Below, in pieces: positions 6,001 to 12,000 of a DNA stretch of 64,000 bases. Position numbers: made by a program. Numbering within the stretch: the stretch's first letter is position 1; each line of letters begins with the position of its first letter. Origin of the DNA: Chrysemys picta bellii (lineage: Eukaryota); NCBI RefSeq assembly GCF_011386835.1, contig NC_088791.1, positions 115,940,001-116,004,000 of the forward strand, written 5' to 3'.

Positions 6001-9000
6001 CAGGGGGTTAAATAGGGTGCTTGACCAATCAGAGAGCTGCAGGGTGCCATTAGTCTGGGTCTCTTGGACAGTACTTCCTGCAGCATGAACTCTGCATGGT
6101 GCGCCCTGGCTGTGTCTGGTTTCCTGGTGGCACTGTGGGAATATCAGCTGTCCCAGGCTCTGCAGGCCTGGATTCTAATCCCAAAGTCCTTATAGGCTGG
6201 GATACTGTTTAAACTAAGTAAAAGTTAGTGTAGAAAAGGCCTATAGGGACTGAGTTTTGTTATCTAGGAAGATGTTAACATAGTTTCTGATCTAGACAGG
6301 AATAACATTTTCAAAAACACCTAAGTGACTCTGAAGACCCAGGTTCTAGTTCCTAGGTCCTTACATCACCCCTCACCTTCTTCAGGGGTGCCCCTTTTCT
6401 GTCAGGGTAGGTTTATCTGGATGGTCTTGATATAACCTTTCTATCAGATCATGGGCAGCAGGTTCCCAGAAGCATTCTTTGGGACCTATCCTCCCAGTCA
6501 ATTAGATAGTACAGTCTCCTCCTCTGCCATTTAAAGTTGAGGATTGTGTGTACTACATTTTCTTCATGTCCTTGGAGCTGGACTGGTGGAGGTGGCTTTT
6601 GGGACCAATCGGGAAAGGAGTCATCTGTGTAAGCCTTCAGGAGGGATACATGGAAAGCGGAATGTACCTTAAAAGGTCAAGGGAGCTGTAATTTGAAAGC
6701 AAAGTTCTGGAAAGGTCCAAGGAACTGGTGGTCTAGCTTGTGGGACAGCCTGTTTGTACGGAGGTGCTTTGTGGCAAGTCAGACCTTTTGGCCTACCATG
6801 AGAGCTGAGCCTTCCTGGTGTTGATGGTTTGTATACTATGTATAGATAAGGCTATGTTTTAGTCACGGATATGTTTAGTAAAAGTCATGGATGGATCACG
6901 GGCAGTAAATAAAAATTCACAGCCCATGACTTGTCCATGACTTTTACTATATACTCCTAACTAAAACTTGGGTGGGGGACTGTGGGTGCTCTGGGGGGCA
7001 GTGTGGGGGCACCATGGGTGCTGGGGGAGGTGGCCTGGGACACTGCTGGTGCTGGGGTGGGGGGACTGGGCAGTGGCATGCAACCTGGGACCCCCGCTGG
7101 TGCTGAGGAGGGGCAGGCAGCGGCGTGCGGCCTGGGACTCCTGTTGGTGCTGCTCCTACACCCAAACTGCTACTGCTGGCCCAGGGGCTGCACCGGCCAC
7201 TGCAGAAGTCACGGAGGTCATGGAAAGTCATGGATTCTGTGACTTCTGTGACCGCCATGACAGACTTGCAACCTTACTTATAGTCCCTTTTCACATCTTT
7301 GAGGTGGTTCTTAAGTTCCTCCTGGATACGGTGAACTCATTGGACCCAGTCAGCAGCTGCAGGGTTTGAGGAGGCTGCTGGCAAAGCCAGATGGAAGTGA
7401 GGGTGATAACCATAATTGTCAAAGAAGGGACTTTGCCTTATATAAGAACTCAGCATGTGGCAGGAGGGAGAATTAGTTGTCTTGATGGGAGTTGACAAAG
7501 TACCTCAGGTATTGCTCTAATACTTGGTTTGCCCTCTCCATTTGCCTATCTGTCTGGGGATGATAAGCAAAGGAGGTAAAAGTATGAAAAAGGAGGTAAA
7601 AGCATGTCCATTAGCTGGAATGCTTCATGCCAGAAGCGTGAGACAAATTGCAGGGGTGTGATCTGAGGTGACACAGGCTGGAAACCCATGAAGGTGGACC
7701 AGATGAATCACTAGGCATTGAGCCTTTGTTCAGCAGGGGACAGGATGTTACAGGGGATGTAATATGCCATCTTGGTTAGTTGGTCTACAACAGTCAAGAC
7801 CTCTGTGTGAGTCAGGGAGTTCCACTATGAAGTTCATTGTGATTGAGGCCCATGGTCTAGAAGGGGTTTCCAGGGTGCTGAGGGACTTAGCACGTGGAAT
7901 GTTGGTGCGTGCACACATGTCACAAGAGTTAACATAGTCCTGAGCTTTGGCCTGCATATGGGCCACCAGAAGAAATGGAAAGCTGTGTGGAAGGTCTTAA
8001 GGCTGTTGAAGTAACCTGCCAATGGAGTATTATGGCAGAGATGTAGCACTTTTAGTTAGGGGCACCCTGTTGGAATGCACAACCATTGAGGTAGGTGCTC
8101 CCTTCCTGTGTGGAGCACTGCCTCTTGGTTCTGGCTCTTTGCTCAGGCTGTTCCATCACCTCCTGGGCTAACAGATCACCCTGCAAAGCGGACAAGATTA
8201 CATCAAGCAGGTCTTGGTGTTTTGTGGCACTGAGGAAGTTGCAAGGTTTTAGGAGCAGGGTGATTCTTCGCTAGGCTCCTCGCTTTCTTGGTAGGATTCC
8301 CCTTTTGGGATAAGGTGTCAGTTTTCCCATTCCTTGTTCCCAGCTGCTAGGTGATGATGAAATCAAACCAAGAGAAAAATAACACTCACCTGAGTGGTAT
8401 TTGGTTCAAGACTTGAGCCTTCCATGGATATTTGAGATTTTTATGGTCTGGAAAGATTTGCACTGGCTCTTGGGCTACCTTGAGGTGATGGTGACACTCT
8501 TTGAAGGCTGATTTGATTGCAAATAGTTCTTTATCTAATATTTCTTAATTCTGTTCATCCAGGATGAGTTTTTGGGAATAGTAGGTGCAGGGGTACAGGA
8601 CTTCCTGCAGATTATTCCTCTGGGAGAGTACCCCAGGGCTAAATTGGAGGCTTTGGCTTCCACTATGAATGCCAGGGCCAGGGCTGGGTGTAATGGAATT
8701 GGGATGGTGGTGAAAGTAGCCTTGAATTGTTTGAAAGCATGGTGAGCTTCAGGTGTCCAAACAACCTTGGCAATCCAGCAGGACGTGAGCCTGGTCCAGA
8801 TGGCCTTCATCTTCTTAGAGTGTATCTTAACACCCTCTGTGGAAAGGATGTAATCCAAGAAGTCCTCTGTGAAGGACTGGTCAAAGGTACATTTTTTTCC
8901 AACTTCATAAACAGGCCATGCTTTCATAGGCTTTCCAGGATGTACAAACACAAGTATGTCATTGAGATAGATCACTACATACTGGTCCAGGATGTCACTA

Positions 9001-12000
9001 AATATGTCATTCACAAAGTGTTGAAAGGTCACAGGAGCATTGGTCAGCCCAAATGGCATTACTAAATGTTCAAAATGCCCATAGTGGGTTCGAAACACAG
9101 ACTTCCGTTTGTCTCCTGCCCTGATGTGCACTAGGTTGTAAGCACCCTTGAGGTCCAGTTTTGTGAAGATTCTGGCAGACCTCACACAATCTAGTAACTC
9201 TGAGATCAAAGGCAGAGGATACTGGTTTTGGATTTTGACATGCTTTGGGGCCCGATAGTCTATGCAAAGGACTGGAGCCCCTGCTGGAAAGGTGGAACAC
9301 TGGGTGAAGCCCTTGGCCAGGTGTTCCTAGATGTTTTCATGAAGGTTTGCCAGTTCAGGCTCGGACATTGAATAGATCTGTCCATAAGGGACCTTTGCCC
9401 TGCGTTGCAGATCTATAGGGCAGTAATAGACTTGGTGTGGAGGTAGCATGTTCATATTCTTCTTTTCAAAAATGTCCGCATAATCCCAACATTTTTCAGG
9501 GAGATTGGGATTTAGGTTTGGGAATGATTCCTCCTGGCTAGCTGCCACCAGCTGGAGTCCCTCCACGCATGTGGTCACTTCCAATCGGCCTTAGGAGCCC
9601 AGGACAAGAAGGTTGGGGCTAGCTCCTCTGCACAGGAAGACCCTTAGGCAGTAGTCAGAGGGGAAGCTGATCCTCTTTTCTCTCCAGGAGATGCAAGGGT
9701 CATGCTGCTCCAGCCAGGTGATGCCAAGAATTAAGGGGAAATGTGAGGAATGGATCATGTTGAACTGTAGCACTTCCCCATGGTCCAGGATTACAGTCTC
9801 TAGGGGCACTGTTTCTTGAGTCACTGGCCCTGAGGACAGGAGGGGCCCATCAATTTTTTCTATGAGAACTGATGTGGACTTTAAACAAGGGAGATTCATC
9901 GTGCTTGAGTGGCTTTGACATCTATGAAGTTATCAGTAGTCCTGGTATTGATCAGAGCCCCTGAGGGGAGAGGGGAGCAATCGGCTTGGCCCCATTCCTA
10001 GTAGGTAACTCCATTTATACTTGGAAGTGTGGGGAGGACCCATGTGTTCTGGATTGGGTTTCTTTCGAGGGCTGGGGGTTAGTTCCTTATCATAGCATCT
10101 GGGTGATGCCCAGGCTGGCTCCCTCTATATGGCCTGGGCACGCTTGTTTTCCAACTTCTTGCGGGTTTGAGGTTTGCAGTAGGCATGAGGTGAGAGCATG
10201 TCCTGGTGCTCCACAATAAAAACATAGGTTATTGCACCGTAACTATTCAATTTCTTCCAAGATCAGGTGTTGGTGTTCCAGATCAACCTGCATCAATTCA
10301 TGGTTGGGCCCTGAAATTTTTGGTGTAGCATGTAGGTAAAGTGGTAGTAGGGTGCCCCTCCTTTTCTCCCTTTGCTTATGCAGCCGGATGTCGATGCGGA
10401 GAGAGAGGCTGATAAATGCATCCAAACGTGTCTCGGTGCCGGTTAGCTCGTCTTTTACTTGCTCACTGAGCTCATGCCGAAAATGATGCACTTGGGCTGC
10501 CTCGTTCCATTCAACATCAGCTGCGAGTTGCCAGAACTGGGCAACATACAAGGCTGTTGGCCCTTGCCCCTTGCTGGAGCCTTCGTAGTGCTGCTTCTAT
10601 GGAGCGAGTGCAATAAGGGTCTACAAAGAGTATGGAAAACATATGCAGGAAGGCATTCCAGTCCATTAACAGTGGGCTGCTTTGCTCCCACTCCAGTGCT
10701 TCTTCTGTAAGCAAACTGGTCACTAGTCCCACCCCGGACTTGTTGGTGGGATACAGTTGAGGGCAGGGCAGGAAAAGGAGATGGCATTGATTCAGGAATC
10801 CCCTGAACATCTGGCGGTTAGTATCAAAATGTTCGGGTTGTGGTACTATGGGGCTCAGTTCAAAGGGCAGTGGCCTGCAGCACGGAATTCTGGGCCTGGA
10901 GCACAGACTTTTCTTCCTGGGACTGTGTTAGCTGTTCACAGAGTGTCTGATTTTCTGCTAGGATCTGTGCCACTGGGAGTTGCATGACCCTCTTGTGGGG
11001 AATCCAGTACTCCAGGGGGTCCAGCGAGACTGAGTTTTGTTATCTAGGAAGATGCTAACATGGTTTCGCATCTAGGCAGGAATAACATTTTCAAAAGCAC
11101 ATAAGTGACTTAGGAGTCCAAGTCCTATTTTCAAAAAATATTTAGGTATTTAGATATTTTGGAGTGTAAGCCTCTTTGAACTCCTCCACTGAAAGTCCTC
11201 CTAAGTGCTGAAGTCACTTTTGAAAAATGGGACTTAGGCTCCTAATTCCCCTTGGGTTTGTGTACACAGTGGCAGCGGCCCATGTAATGAGTCTAAGCAC
11301 CTGGGTCAACAGACTCAGGCTTGCGCTACTGTGTTAAGAAAAGCTGTGTAGATGTTGCGGCTGAGGCCCCGAAGCTTAGGGATGGGAGGTGGGCTTCAGA
11401 GCCCTAGTTTCAACCTGAGCCACAATGTCTGCAAAGATATTTTTAGGGCAGTAACATGAGCTCTGTGAGCCTGAGCCAGCTCTACGTCATTCATATATGC
11501 TGGACACAGTGCATAGAAGAGCAGCTAGCGGCACTAGTGCTGAGGAATATATCTCCTAGCCCACATGGAAGGAGATAGTTGTCAGAACCTCCTGTCTGTT
11601 AGAAGGCAGACAACAAACCGAAGCCTGGAGAGGAAAAGGAGATGCCCATTCCCAGCAGCCAGGAGAATCTCTTGGGAATAGCAGAAGATCAGCTTTGTTT
11701 CAAATATGCTTCAGATTTCAGTTGTAAGGCTCTGATTTATATCCCATGTAACACCACTGATTTAATGACACTGGATGGCATGTAAGTCAGTGAAGGATTT
11801 AGCCCTATAAGCTGGGGGTCTGCTTTGCCACTTCCTTGTACCTTGGCGTCATTTACACTTTCGCCAAGTTGGTATCCATCACAGCCTGACTGGCAGATTT
11901 AATACCTACTTTGTTCTCACTTTAACTGACTATGCAAGGCAGTGGAGAATCAGCCCCACAGAATTTTAATTGGTATTGAATTTAAATCATCATAAATTAC

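What the first reader, a model, noticed from the sequence alone, without database searches (positions are those of the whole stretch)
6248..11110. LTR-less Gypsy body flanked by an 83-bp duplication of host DNA
Seen: 4.7 kb of Gypsy internal sequence, from just upstream of gag to 35 bp into the 3' LTR, lies exactly between 83-bp direct repeats (76/83 identical). The right copy continues into an intact host repeat. Established: Gypsy integrase makes 4-6 bp TSDs and inserts LTR-to-LTR cDNA, so this is not a normal integration. Inference: the repeats look less diverged than the heavily decayed body, suggesting a later templated insertion of an already-dead element (break repair or template switching) or non-integrase cDNA capture, creating an unusually long target duplication.
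Basis: partly seen in the sequence, partly recalled or inferred. Interest (0 to 1): 0.65.

Follow-up and report, generated by a model that had tools for sequence, protein, structure and literature searches.

The report
LTR-less Gypsy between duplicated host DNA
A decayed but complete gag-pol core of a Gypsy-type retroelement lies, without its terminal repeats, between two copies of an 83-base piece of host DNA, which points to insertion by break repair rather than by the element's own integrase.

Summary
Window 6248-6330 and 11028-11110 are direct repeats (76/83 identical, E 9e-27). The 4,697 bases between them are a Ty3/Gypsy gag-pol core on the minus strand, covering about residues 58-1436 of relatives of 1456-1497 aa. 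No LTR pair flanks it in the window. The repeat is not just a common repeat end. Its first 54 nt match nothing else in the window. Its last 29 nt are the end of a palindromic MITE-like repeat that has 3 other copies here. So one unique/repeat junction was duplicated once, together with the insertion.

Most likely this is an integrase-independent capture of retroelement sequence, probably a reverse-transcription product, at a staggered break, with the overhang filled in as an 83-bp target duplication. Both ends of the duplicated piece lie at the base of hairpin-forming inverted repeats.

I counted about 11-15 stops and 11-16 frameshifts. Decay since the duplication would give about 8-10 stops (range 3-20).

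The "35 bp of 3' LTR" rests only on its position after a purine tract, and its origin is ambiguous. A donor copy, an empty site and read support could not be checked. This is a moderately interesting single locus.

The parts
6248..6330 (.). Left copy of the 83-bp direct repeat (duplicated host DNA: 54 nt unique + 29 nt MITE end)
   Evidence: 76/83 identical to 11028-11110; composition of the unit
11028..11110 (.). Right copy of the 83-bp direct repeat; it continues without a break into the full MITE-like repeat
6331..11027 (-). LTR-less body of a Ty3/Gypsy (chromovirus-like) element: leader, broken gag-pol, purine tract and a short stretch after it
   Evidence: only Gypsy-like coding in the window (0 tblastn hits outside it for 6 of 6 relatives)
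6376..10985 (-). gag-pol reading region, broken. About 11-15 in-frame stops and about 11-16 frameshifts (one of each may be the natural gag/pol boundary). Larger insertions or deletions were not counted separately; length is within about 200 nt of relatives.
   Evidence: outer bounds from tblastn and first ATG of the open frame; counts from a path-free alignment to 6 relatives
10565..10855 (-). gag domain (DUF4939 / Retrotrans_gag matches, below Pfam cut-offs)
   Evidence: E 4.6e-4 and 0.013
10198..10227 (-). zinc-knuckle-like stretch (weak)
   Evidence: zf-CCHC E 0.031, below cut-off
9663..9914 (-). aspartyl protease-like stretch (weak)
   Evidence: RVP_2 E 0.027, below cut-off
8422..9218 (-). 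reverse transcriptase and RNase H domains
   Evidence: RVT_1 59.3 bits (cut-off 29.6), RT_RNaseH 25.6 bits (cut-off 24.8), RT_RNaseH_2 21.8 bits
7898..8052 (-). integrase zinc-binding (H2C2) domain
   Evidence: E 8e-5 and 0.012, below cut-off; integrase core covered only by tblastn to relatives
6491..6772 (-). integrase C-terminal SH3-like stretch and chromodomain-like end
   Evidence: SH3_Tf2-1 E 0.019; 27/61 identical to residues 1344-1404 of P0080, E 3e-11
6369..6383 (-). purine-rich tract (polypurine-tract-like), followed by TG
   Evidence: read; lies in the part homologous to the C-terminal end of relatives
6331..6368 (-). Junction zone of ambiguous origin: either the first 35-38 nt of a 3' LTR, or host/MITE-like or filler DNA
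   Evidence: position after the purine tract; 24/26 purine/pyrimidine agreement with the MITE arm 11111-11136; 26/35 identical to 6158-6192
10986..11027 (-). 42-nt leader between the right repeat copy and the first ATG. Holds TGG 4 nt from the junction and CTGGA three times. Primer-binding site not verifiable.
   Evidence: read; no tRNA in the window to compare with
11082..11265 (.). Palindromic MITE-like host repeat; stem arms 11107-11137 and 11218-11248
   Evidence: other copies at about 18178-18381, 33711-33753, 54699-54755
6185..6251 (.). Inverted repeat (13-nt arms, 41-nt loop) whose right arm overlaps the first 4 nt of the left repeat copy
   Evidence: folds better than shuffles, z -2.56
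6158..6192 (.). Left-flank stretch 74% identical to 6329-6363 (unexplained)
   Evidence: 0 of 1000 shuffles reach the score

Best explanation
A complete internal region of a chromovirus-like Ty3/Gypsy element (leader, gag-pol, purine tract), without LTRs, was put into host DNA by a route that did not use the element's integrase. The target lay at the edge of a palindromic MITE. The two strands were broken 83 nt apart, and filling in the overhangs on each side of the captured piece made the 83-bp duplication.

The inserted piece was most likely a reverse-transcription product or RNA-templated copy (cDNA capture, or 'RT-product-mediated break repair'), not a random piece of genomic DNA. It holds the whole coding region and ends within about 40 nt of the places where reverse transcription is primed.

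Shown: the anatomy, the host origin and single-event nature of the duplication, and the lack of LTRs. Inferred: the staggered break, the RT origin of the insert, and a role for the two hairpin-forming inverted repeats in placing the nicks.
For: (1) The repeat is real and has sharp edges: 76/83 identical, with nothing similar beyond it by plain alignment.
(2) The repeat unit spans a unique/repeat junction. 11028-11081 has no other match in the window: best other tile scores 14, against 43-44 for the tiles holding its partner. None of the 4 flanks of other MITE copies scores above shuffles. 11082-11135 matches 3 of 3 other MITE copies, with 0/500 shuffles reaching the score. Two independent repeat insertions cannot give the same junction twice.
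(3) The right copy runs on into the whole MITE, as expected if the target was copied rather than brought in.
(4) There is no LTR pair, no poly(A), and the flanking duplication is 83 bp rather than 4-6 bp.
(5) The body is the whole internal region. Relatives align from about residue 58-75 to about 1358-1451, only here and only on the minus strand. 42 nt lie before the first ATG and 35-38 nt after the purine tract.
(6) The duplicated segment runs from the base of one hairpin-capable inverted repeat (arm ends at 6251, 3 nt inside the repeat) to the base of the MITE stem (arm starts at 11107, 3 nt before the repeat's end). Both fold better than shuffles, z -2.6 and -2.8. Such repeats occur at 39 per 8,001 nt. 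By my arithmetic the double coincidence has a chance of about 0.002 (this exact geometry) to 0.03 (any arm end).
(7) Precedent in print. Truncated LTR-retroelement gag-pol pieces are captured at breaks in mouse, including a natural case with a 10-bp non-integrase duplication and a 27-bp imperfect microhomology (PMC4516963, sections 8 and 10 read). A Ty3/Gypsy-group element, Tf1, has an integrase-independent route (PMC11042837, abstract and Discussion read). HML-2 insertions have 111- and 250-bp duplications (PMC5488345, abstract read).
Against: - No donor copy, empty site or read support could be examined, so everything rests on one assembled locus.
- RT origin is not shown. There is no spliced or poly(A) mark, the primer-binding site could not be tested, and the frame is open up to the right junction. 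The 5' end may therefore be a random break inside gag rather than a natural cDNA end.
- Captured fragments in the papers I read are usually shorter and carry small or no duplications.
- The 35-38 nt next to the left copy may be host-like rather than LTR. That would move the junction and weaken the reading of both ends.
- The hairpin coincidence was noticed after the fact.
Confidence: 0.5

Rival explanations
1. Replicative template switching (FoSTeS/MMBIR-type). A replication or repair fork left the host template inside the MITE, copied 4.7 kb from a genomic Gypsy copy elsewhere (possibly already dead), and came back 83 nt behind its point of departure, which duplicated the 83 nt. This is the first option the reader named.
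For: It gives an insertion plus a flanking duplication in one event. Hairpin-forming repeats at both ends of the duplicated piece are the kind of structure that stalls forks. The break counts do not exclude a dead template.
Against: A DNA template gives no reason for the copied piece to be the whole internal region and almost nothing else, with 42 nt before the first ATG and 35-38 nt after the purine tract. No other copy of the family lies in the 64 kb. Junction microhomology cannot be read without the donor.
Confidence: 0.2
2. The repeats are what is left of the element's own (short or chimeric) LTRs. One version: a copy made by reverse transcription of a read-through RNA that started in the host MITE, so that the 83 nt upstream of the primer site were copied to the 3' end as a pseudo-U5.
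For: The repeats sit exactly where LTRs belong. The left one follows the purine tract by 35-38 nt and the right one ends 4 nt before a TGG. The right repeat's outer end coincides with the base of the MITE stem, a place where a reverse transcriptase could stall.
Against: The right copy continues in register into a genuine MITE that has 3 other copies lacking the 54-nt part, so it is host context and not an LTR. The 35-38 nt that precede the left copy in element orientation are absent upstream of the right copy: no match to a 20-mer from that stretch (6349-6368) with up to 3 mismatches, and no alignment above background. A product of reverse transcription would carry the same pseudo-LTR at both ends.
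Confidence: 0.08
3. Assembly artefact: a false join between a MITE-bearing locus and a Gypsy copy, with the repeat made by mis-merged contig ends or haplotypes.
For: Both junctions lie in or next to repeated DNA, and no reads were available.
Against: The two copies differ at 7/83 sites, far more than unmerged overlaps or haplotypes usually do. No N run lies within 6248-11110; the nearest are 3541-3816 and 24529-24692. A false join would not by itself produce a duplicated unique/MITE junction.
Confidence: 0.07
4. An older 79-bp tandem duplication of host DNA, bounded by the 4-nt repeat GACT, into whose midpoint a Gypsy integrated normally (4-bp duplication GACT) and later lost both LTRs.
For: The repeat begins and ends with GACT, so the body is flanked by GACT on both sides.
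Against: Losing both LTRs while keeping the 4-bp duplication flush against the internal region needs two exact deletions. Integration exactly at the midpoint of a pre-existing duplication is a further coincidence. Integrase needs LTR ends (established knowledge of retroviral-type integrases).
Confidence: 0.04

Closest known systems
RT-product-mediated double-strand-break repair / capture of LTR-retroelement sequence at breaks (Ono et al. 2015, PMC4516963: outline, sections 8 and 10 read); Ty1 cDNA capture at breaks in yeast (recalled, not read here)
   Same: Retroelement gag-pol sequence without LTR ends sits at a break, and the flanking duplication is not of integrase type. The paper reports a natural MuERV-L case with a 10-bp duplication and an imperfect 27-bp microhomology.
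   Different: Here the insert is the whole 4.7-kb internal region rather than a shorter fragment, and the duplication is 83 bp. Microhomology and RT origin could not be tested. The host is an unidentified non-mammal-like vertebrate.
Integrase-independent insertion of Tf1, a Ty3/Gypsy-group element (Li et al. 2022, PMC11042837: abstract and Discussion read)
   Same: An element of the same superfamily inserts without integrase, guided by the single-stranded primer sites (PBS, PPT) at the cDNA ends. Truncation of the element is proposed for events at unique sites.
   Different: The Tf1 events keep LTRs and mostly form tandem arrays at resident copies. Here there is no LTR and no resident copy in the window. 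Homology of the target to PBS or PPT was not testable.
HERV-K (HML-2) insertions with 111-bp and 250-bp target duplications (Kahyo et al. 2017, PMC5488345: abstract read)
   Same: An LTR-type retroelement is flanked by a target duplication far longer than the canonical 4-6 bp.
   Different: Those insertions have LTRs (a solo LTR or a provirus); this one has none.
LINE-mediated processed copies of LTR elements (HERV-W retrosequences; recalled; one search gave only listings, none read)
   Same: Copies of an LTR element that lack complete LTRs and were inserted by a machinery other than their own integrase.
   Different: Those start in R, end in R plus poly(A) and have short LINE-type duplications. 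Here there is no poly(A), no R, and an 83-bp duplication.
Canonical Ty3/Gypsy chromovirus insertion
   Same: Domain order gag-protease-RT-RNase H-integrase, a chromodomain-like C-terminal end, and a purine tract after pol.
   Different: No LTRs and no 4-6 bp duplication.

Membership tests
Ty3/Gypsy (Metaviridae) LTR retrotransposon, chromovirus-like | gag, protease, RT, RNase H, integrase in this order on one strand | tested here: met
   RVT_1 and RT_RNaseH above Pfam cut-offs, the others below; 6 of 6 relatives align collinearly on the minus strand
Ty3/Gypsy (Metaviridae) LTR retrotransposon, chromovirus-like | chromodomain at the integrase C-terminus | tested here: inconclusive
   27/61 identical to residues 1344-1404 of P0080, a relative whose precomputed domains include PF00385. 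Pfam itself gave no chromodomain hit on the window segment.
Ty3/Gypsy (Metaviridae) LTR retrotransposon, chromovirus-like | a pair of long terminal repeats flanking the internal region | tested here: not met
   the only repeat pair around the body is the 83-mer, which is host DNA
Ty3/Gypsy (Metaviridae) LTR retrotransposon, chromovirus-like | 4-6 bp target-site duplication | tested here: not met
   83-bp duplication. The 4-nt GACT on both sides of the body is part of that repeat.
Ty3/Gypsy (Metaviridae) LTR retrotransposon, chromovirus-like | polypurine tract just before the 3' LTR | tested here: met
   purine tract 6369-6383 followed by TG. That an LTR follows it is not shown.
Ty3/Gypsy (Metaviridae) LTR retrotransposon, chromovirus-like | tRNA primer-binding site just after the 5' LTR | not testable with these tools
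   TGG lies 4 nt from the junction. No eukaryotic tRNA set was available, and there is no tRNA or Rfam match in the window.
cDNA / RT-product capture at a chromosomal break | retroelement sequence lacking its integration ends, with no integrase-type duplication | tested here: met
cDNA / RT-product capture at a chromosomal break | microhomology between insert ends and target | not testable with these tools
   needs the donor sequence and the empty site; no eukaryotic genome was available
cDNA / RT-product capture at a chromosomal break | a mark of reverse transcription (natural cDNA ends, splicing, poly(A)) | tested here: inconclusive
   the ends lie within about 40 nt of the presumed primer sites, but the PBS is unverified and the gag frame is open to the junction
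LINE-mediated processed retrocopy | 3' poly(A) and a short A/T-rich-site duplication | tested here: not met
   no A run at the element's 3' junction, and the duplication is 83 bp
Replicative template switch (FoSTeS/MMBIR) | a genomic donor copy continuous beyond both breakpoints, and junction microhomology | not testable with these tools
   no other copy in the 64 kb; genome not available
Palindromic MITE-like host repeat (the repeat the right copy runs into) | several dispersed copies sharing ends, with internal or terminal inverted repeats | tested here: met
   3 other copies; 31-nt arms 81% complementary; folds with z -2.83. Its own target duplication and superfamily were not tested.

The most novel reading that the evidence does not exclude
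This is a germline fossil of a reverse-transcription-linked, integrase-independent insertion route for LTR elements in a vertebrate. A whole PBS-to-PPT internal region (a reverse-transcription intermediate that never gained LTRs) was joined into a break whose two nicks were set 83 nt apart by two hairpin-forming inverted repeats. The transition-riddled 26 nt beside the left junction would be a trace of error-prone or locally templated repair synthesis.
Probability: 0.25. Interest if true: 0.55.

Novelty: new variant of a known kind. Interest (0 to 1): 0.4.

Why it matters
If the structure is real, it is a natural example of a complete Gypsy internal region entering a vertebrate germline without LTRs and without integrase, leaving a target duplication about twenty times the canonical length. 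Such loci record how breaks are patched with retroelement sequence. They also matter in practice. LTR-based annotation tools miss them, and LTR-divergence dating cannot be applied, although here the duplicated target can serve as the clock in its place. The observation that the duplicated piece is bounded by two hairpin-forming repeats gives a testable descriptive prediction about where such long duplications arise. As a single unconfirmed locus, its weight is limited.

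Tried and rejected
(1) The 83-mer as a common repeat end that flanks by chance. Rejected: only its last 29 nt belong to the MITE family.

(2) LTR remnants further out. The left flank 5683-6196 looks promoter- or LTR-like by eye on the minus strand, but it has no partner anywhere in the window. A 20-mer (6349-6368) from the stretch after the purine tract has no second copy with up to 3 mismatches, and the 42-mer 6331-6372 has no convincing match to the right of the body.

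(3) Extension of the repeat into the MITE arm. Plain alignment of 6331-6372 to 11111-11170 and to 3 other MITE copies is not above shuffles (139, 942, 714 and 139 of 1000). Only a purine/pyrimidine pattern is shared; this stays unexplained.

(4) Homeology between the post-purine-tract stretch and the MITE as the cause of the junction: not supported, for the same reason.

(5) Finding the family or host through proteins. Two database searches with the RT piece gave nothing closer than 40-52% identity at 61-86% coverage, or 60-68% over 37-39% of the query. No donor and no native LTR were found.

(6) PBS test. No tRNA and no Rfam match in the window and no eukaryotic tRNA set, so it was left untested.

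(7) The N-terminal gag piece against relative P0043: no significant match, so completeness of the gag start is not shown.

(8) Tandem repeats near the junctions: none. The one array found in 4000-14500 is a 20-nt, 1.9-copy repeat inside the body.

(9) Literature. Searches (listings, plus the three papers read in part) showed no description of a whole LTR-less Gypsy internal region with a long target duplication. That is weak evidence of absence, because subscription journals and supplements were not searchable.

Full report
1. THE OBSERVATION

The window has vertebrate-like composition: GC 40%, CpG observed/expected 0.195, and four N runs, none near the locus. I left the N runs alone. Nothing in the window was taken for human.

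The claimed repeat is there. 6248-6330 and 11028-11110 are 76/83 identical without gaps. This was seen with the repeat finder, self-BLAST (E 8.7e-27) and local alignment (score 131, against a maximum of 27 in 100 shuffles). A 27-mer and a 35-mer taken from it occur only at these two places in the 64 kb, with none expected by chance.

Gapped BLAST stretches the match to 6248-6351 / 11028-11130 (85.6% of 104 columns), but the added part is only about half identical. Outside that, neither the outer flanks nor the inner edges resemble each other more than shuffled sequence does (scores 10, 13 and 12, against shuffle means of about 10.7 and maxima of 15-16).

2. WHAT LIES BETWEEN THE REPEATS

The 4,697 nt between the repeats encode a Ty3/Gypsy polyprotein on the minus strand. 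The element's 5' end is therefore at the right (11027) and its 3' end at the left (6331).

Pfam matches fall in the canonical order on single-frame open stretches:
- gag: 10565-10855
- weak zinc knuckle: 10198-10227
- weak aspartyl protease: 9663-9914
- reverse transcriptase and RNase H: 8422-9218
- integrase zinc-binding domain: 7898-8052
- weak SH3-like stretch: 6707-6772

Only RVT_1 and RT_RNaseH pass Pfam's curated cut-offs. The others fall below them, as expected for a fragmented frame.

Six named relatives from fishes, frogs and a lizard (35-45% identical) hit only this stretch of the window, and only the minus strand. The outer bounds are 6376-10927, and the matches cover about residues 58-75 to 1358-1451 of proteins of 1416-1497 aa; two shorter relatives are covered to 1044 and 1071. 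The last open stretch is 27/61 identical to residues 1344-1404 of relative P0080, the start of its chromodomain region. The body is thus a whole gag-pol, not a fragment, and its length leaves no room for a large nested insertion.

Two searches of the large protein database with the RT piece gave nothing closer than 40-52% identity at 61-86% coverage (60-68% over 37-39% of the query). Neither the family, the host nor a donor could be identified.

3. STATE OF THE GENES

I aligned the six relatives to the minus strand with a frameshift-aware dynamic programme that carries only a score and two counters and keeps no path.
- With frameshift penalties of 14-18, the two best-scoring relatives give 11-13 frameshifts and 11-15 in-frame stops.
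- Over all 18 runs the ranges are 8-30 frameshifts and 9-15 stops.
- One stop or one frameshift may be the natural gag/pol boundary.
- Larger insertions and deletions were not counted separately.

4. THE ENDS OF THE BODY

At the element's 3' end, a purine tract (6369-6383) is followed by TG and then by 35-38 nt up to the left repeat copy. It is a positional inference only, because no LTR of this family is available for comparison.

At the 5' end, 42 nt separate the right repeat copy from the first ATG of the open gag frame (10985). A TGG lies 4 nt from the junction, and CTGGA occurs three times in the leader. The frame stays open up to the junction, and the N-terminal piece has no significant match to relative P0043. 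A start codon lost at the junction therefore cannot be excluded.

A primer-binding site could not be tested. There is no tRNA and no Rfam match in the window, and no eukaryotic tRNA set was at hand.

There is no poly(A) at the 3' junction.

5. WHAT THE REPEAT IS MADE OF

From about 11082 the right copy belongs to a palindromic MITE-like repeat that runs to about 11265. Its stem arms are 11107-11137 and 11218-11248 (31 nt, 81% complementary). Three other copies lie in the window at about 18178-18381, 33711-33753 and 54699-54755.

A split test settles the composition:
- The MITE part (11082-11135) matches 3 of 3 other copies, with 0 of 500 shuffles reaching the score.
- The first 54 nt of the repeat (11028-11081) match none of 4 flanks of those copies better than shuffles.
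- In a scan of 1,664 tiles of the window, those 54 nt find only themselves and their partner at 6248 (scores 54 and 43-44; next best 14).

The duplicated unit is therefore 54 nt of otherwise unique DNA joined, in the same register in both copies, to the first 29 nt of a MITE. A MITE insertion makes such a junction once. Finding it twice means the junction was duplicated after the MITE had arrived.

6. AGE

The copies differ at 7 of 83 sites (8.4%, exact 95% interval 3.5-16.6%). Half of the Jukes-Cantor distance, applied to 4,368 coding bases, gives about 195 substitutions (77-410). With the amino-acid make-up of two relatives, 3.4-4.0% of random substitutions create a stop. The expectation, computed with rounded rates of 4-5%, is about 8-10 stops, with a range of 3-20. 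I counted 11-15.

The body is therefore no more decayed than the repeats predict, and fast CpG decay would raise the expectation further.

7. TWO FEATURES OF THE TARGET

First, the duplicated piece is bounded by hairpin-capable inverted repeats.
- A 13-nt inverted repeat with a 41-nt loop (6185-6197 / 6239-6251) ends 3 nt inside the repeat's start.
- The MITE stem begins 3 nt before the repeat's end.
- Both fold better than dinucleotide shuffles as single-stranded DNA (z -2.56 and -2.83, 2 of 200 shuffles each).
- Inverted repeats of this kind occur at 39 per 8,001 nt in a control stretch. By my arithmetic, a given type of arm end lies within 4 nt of a given position with probability about 0.044. 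The chance for both ends is about 0.002 for this exact geometry and about 0.03 if any arm end counts.
- The pattern was noticed after the fact.

Second, the repeat begins and ends with GACT, so the body is flanked by GACT on both sides.

8. THE LEFT JUNCTION ZONE IS ODD

The 26 nt after the left copy (6332-6357) and the 26 nt after the right copy (11111-11136, the MITE arm) are identical at only 13 positions. But 11 of the 13 differences are transitions, so purine/pyrimidine agreement is 24 of 26. None of 19,232 random 26-mer pairs from the window reaches 24.

By ordinary alignment the same stretch is not similar to the MITE arm or to three other MITE copies (139, 942, 714 and 139 of 1000 shuffles reach the score).

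It is, however, 26/35 identical (7 transitions, 2 transversions) to 6158-6192 in the left flank, and 0 of 1000 shuffles reach that score.

I cannot say whether these 35-38 nt are the start of an LTR, diverged host or MITE-like sequence, or filler made during repair.

9. HOW IT MOST LIKELY AROSE

Shown:
- a whole LTR-less internal region;
- a single-event duplication of 83 nt of host DNA around it;
- no integrase-type signature.

Inferred: the two host strands were broken 83 nt apart, a retroelement-derived piece was joined in, and the overhangs were filled in on both sides.

I favour a reverse-transcription product or an RNA-templated copy as the inserted piece. It holds the entire coding region and stops within about 40 nt of the two places where reverse transcription is primed, and a random piece of a genomic copy has no reason to do that. 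This step is inference and is weakened by the open frame at the 5' junction.

A DNA-level template switch from a genomic copy is the main rival.

The LTR-remnant reading is attractive because the repeats sit exactly where LTRs belong. It fails for two reasons. The right copy is host context running into a genuine MITE. And the stretch that precedes the left copy is missing upstream of the right copy.

An assembly error is unlikely given 8% divergence and no gaps nearby, but it could not be excluded without reads.

10. COMPARISON WITH WHAT IS KNOWN

- Capture of truncated LTR-retroelement gag-pol pieces at breaks is described in mouse zygotes and in two natural mouse insertions. One of these has a 10-bp duplication not made by integrase and a 27-bp imperfect microhomology (PMC4516963; outline, sections 8 and 10 read).
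- Tf1, a Ty3/Gypsy-group element, has an integrase-independent route guided by its single-stranded primer sites (PMC11042837; abstract and Discussion read).
- HML-2 insertions with 111- and 250-bp duplications are on record (PMC5488345; abstract read).
- Ty1 cDNA capture in yeast and HERV-W processed copies are recalled, not read here.
- Endonuclease-independent L1 insertion (PMC1920257), yeast EndoG (PMC11372161) and Numt-mediated repair (PMC2567098) were seen only as search listings.
- My searches did not show the combination seen here: the whole internal region, no LTRs, and an 83-bp duplication. That is weak evidence of absence.

I rate it a new variant of a known kind.

11. WHAT STAYED UNCHECKED

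Supplements of the papers were closed.

12. VERDICT

This is a credible, moderately interesting fossil of a non-integrase insertion with a long target duplication. Its mechanism remains inferred from one assembled locus.

Noticed in passing
window 6332-6357 vs 11111-11136: The 26 nt after the left repeat copy keep the purine/pyrimidine pattern of the MITE arm after the right copy (24/26) although only 13/26 are identical (11 transitions, 2 transversions). 0 of 19,232 random pairs reach this. Cause unknown.
   Followed up: partly
window 6158-6192 vs 6329-6363: A 35-nt stretch of the left flank is 74% identical to the stretch beside the left junction (0/1000 shuffles). It is the best match of that stretch in the whole window.
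   Followed up: partly
window 5683-6196: The left flank looks LTR- or promoter-like on the minus strand by eye (inverted CCAAT-like and TATA-like motifs, ends in CA). It holds two 52-nt units 79% alike (5807-5858, 5880-5931). It has no partner in the window.
   Followed up: partly
window 13300-13990: A G+C-rich stretch with CCAAT-like and TATAAA motifs on the plus strand, LTR-like by eye. No coding match to the six Gypsy relatives.
   Followed up: no
window 11698-11937 and 12856-13094: A pair of 243-bp inverted repeats, 83% identical, about 0.9 kb apart, just right of the locus. Possibly a foldback or TIR element, or two inverted copies of one repeat.
   Followed up: no
window 13987-14195, 22968-23377, 48777-49079, 49673-50044: Two families of self-palindromic repeats shared between distant parts of the window (74-76% identity).
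   Followed up: no
window 32718-32821, 30952-31026: Further palindromic MITE-like repeats with a TTTTCAAAAG-type motif. Such elements are frequent in this window.
   Followed up: no
window 6876-6949, 6974-7067 and 7569-7606: Inside the body: a 35-nt near-palindrome, three to four G-rich 31-nt units, and a 20-nt unit repeated 1.9 times.
   Followed up: no
window 10986-11027: The leader between the right repeat copy and the first ATG holds CTGGA three times within 25 nt.
   Followed up: no
window 1246-1752, 1781-1928, 3541-3816, 24529-24692: Four N runs, 1,095 N in all.
   Followed up: no
window 4334-4350: A short (GT)n microsatellite.
   Followed up: no
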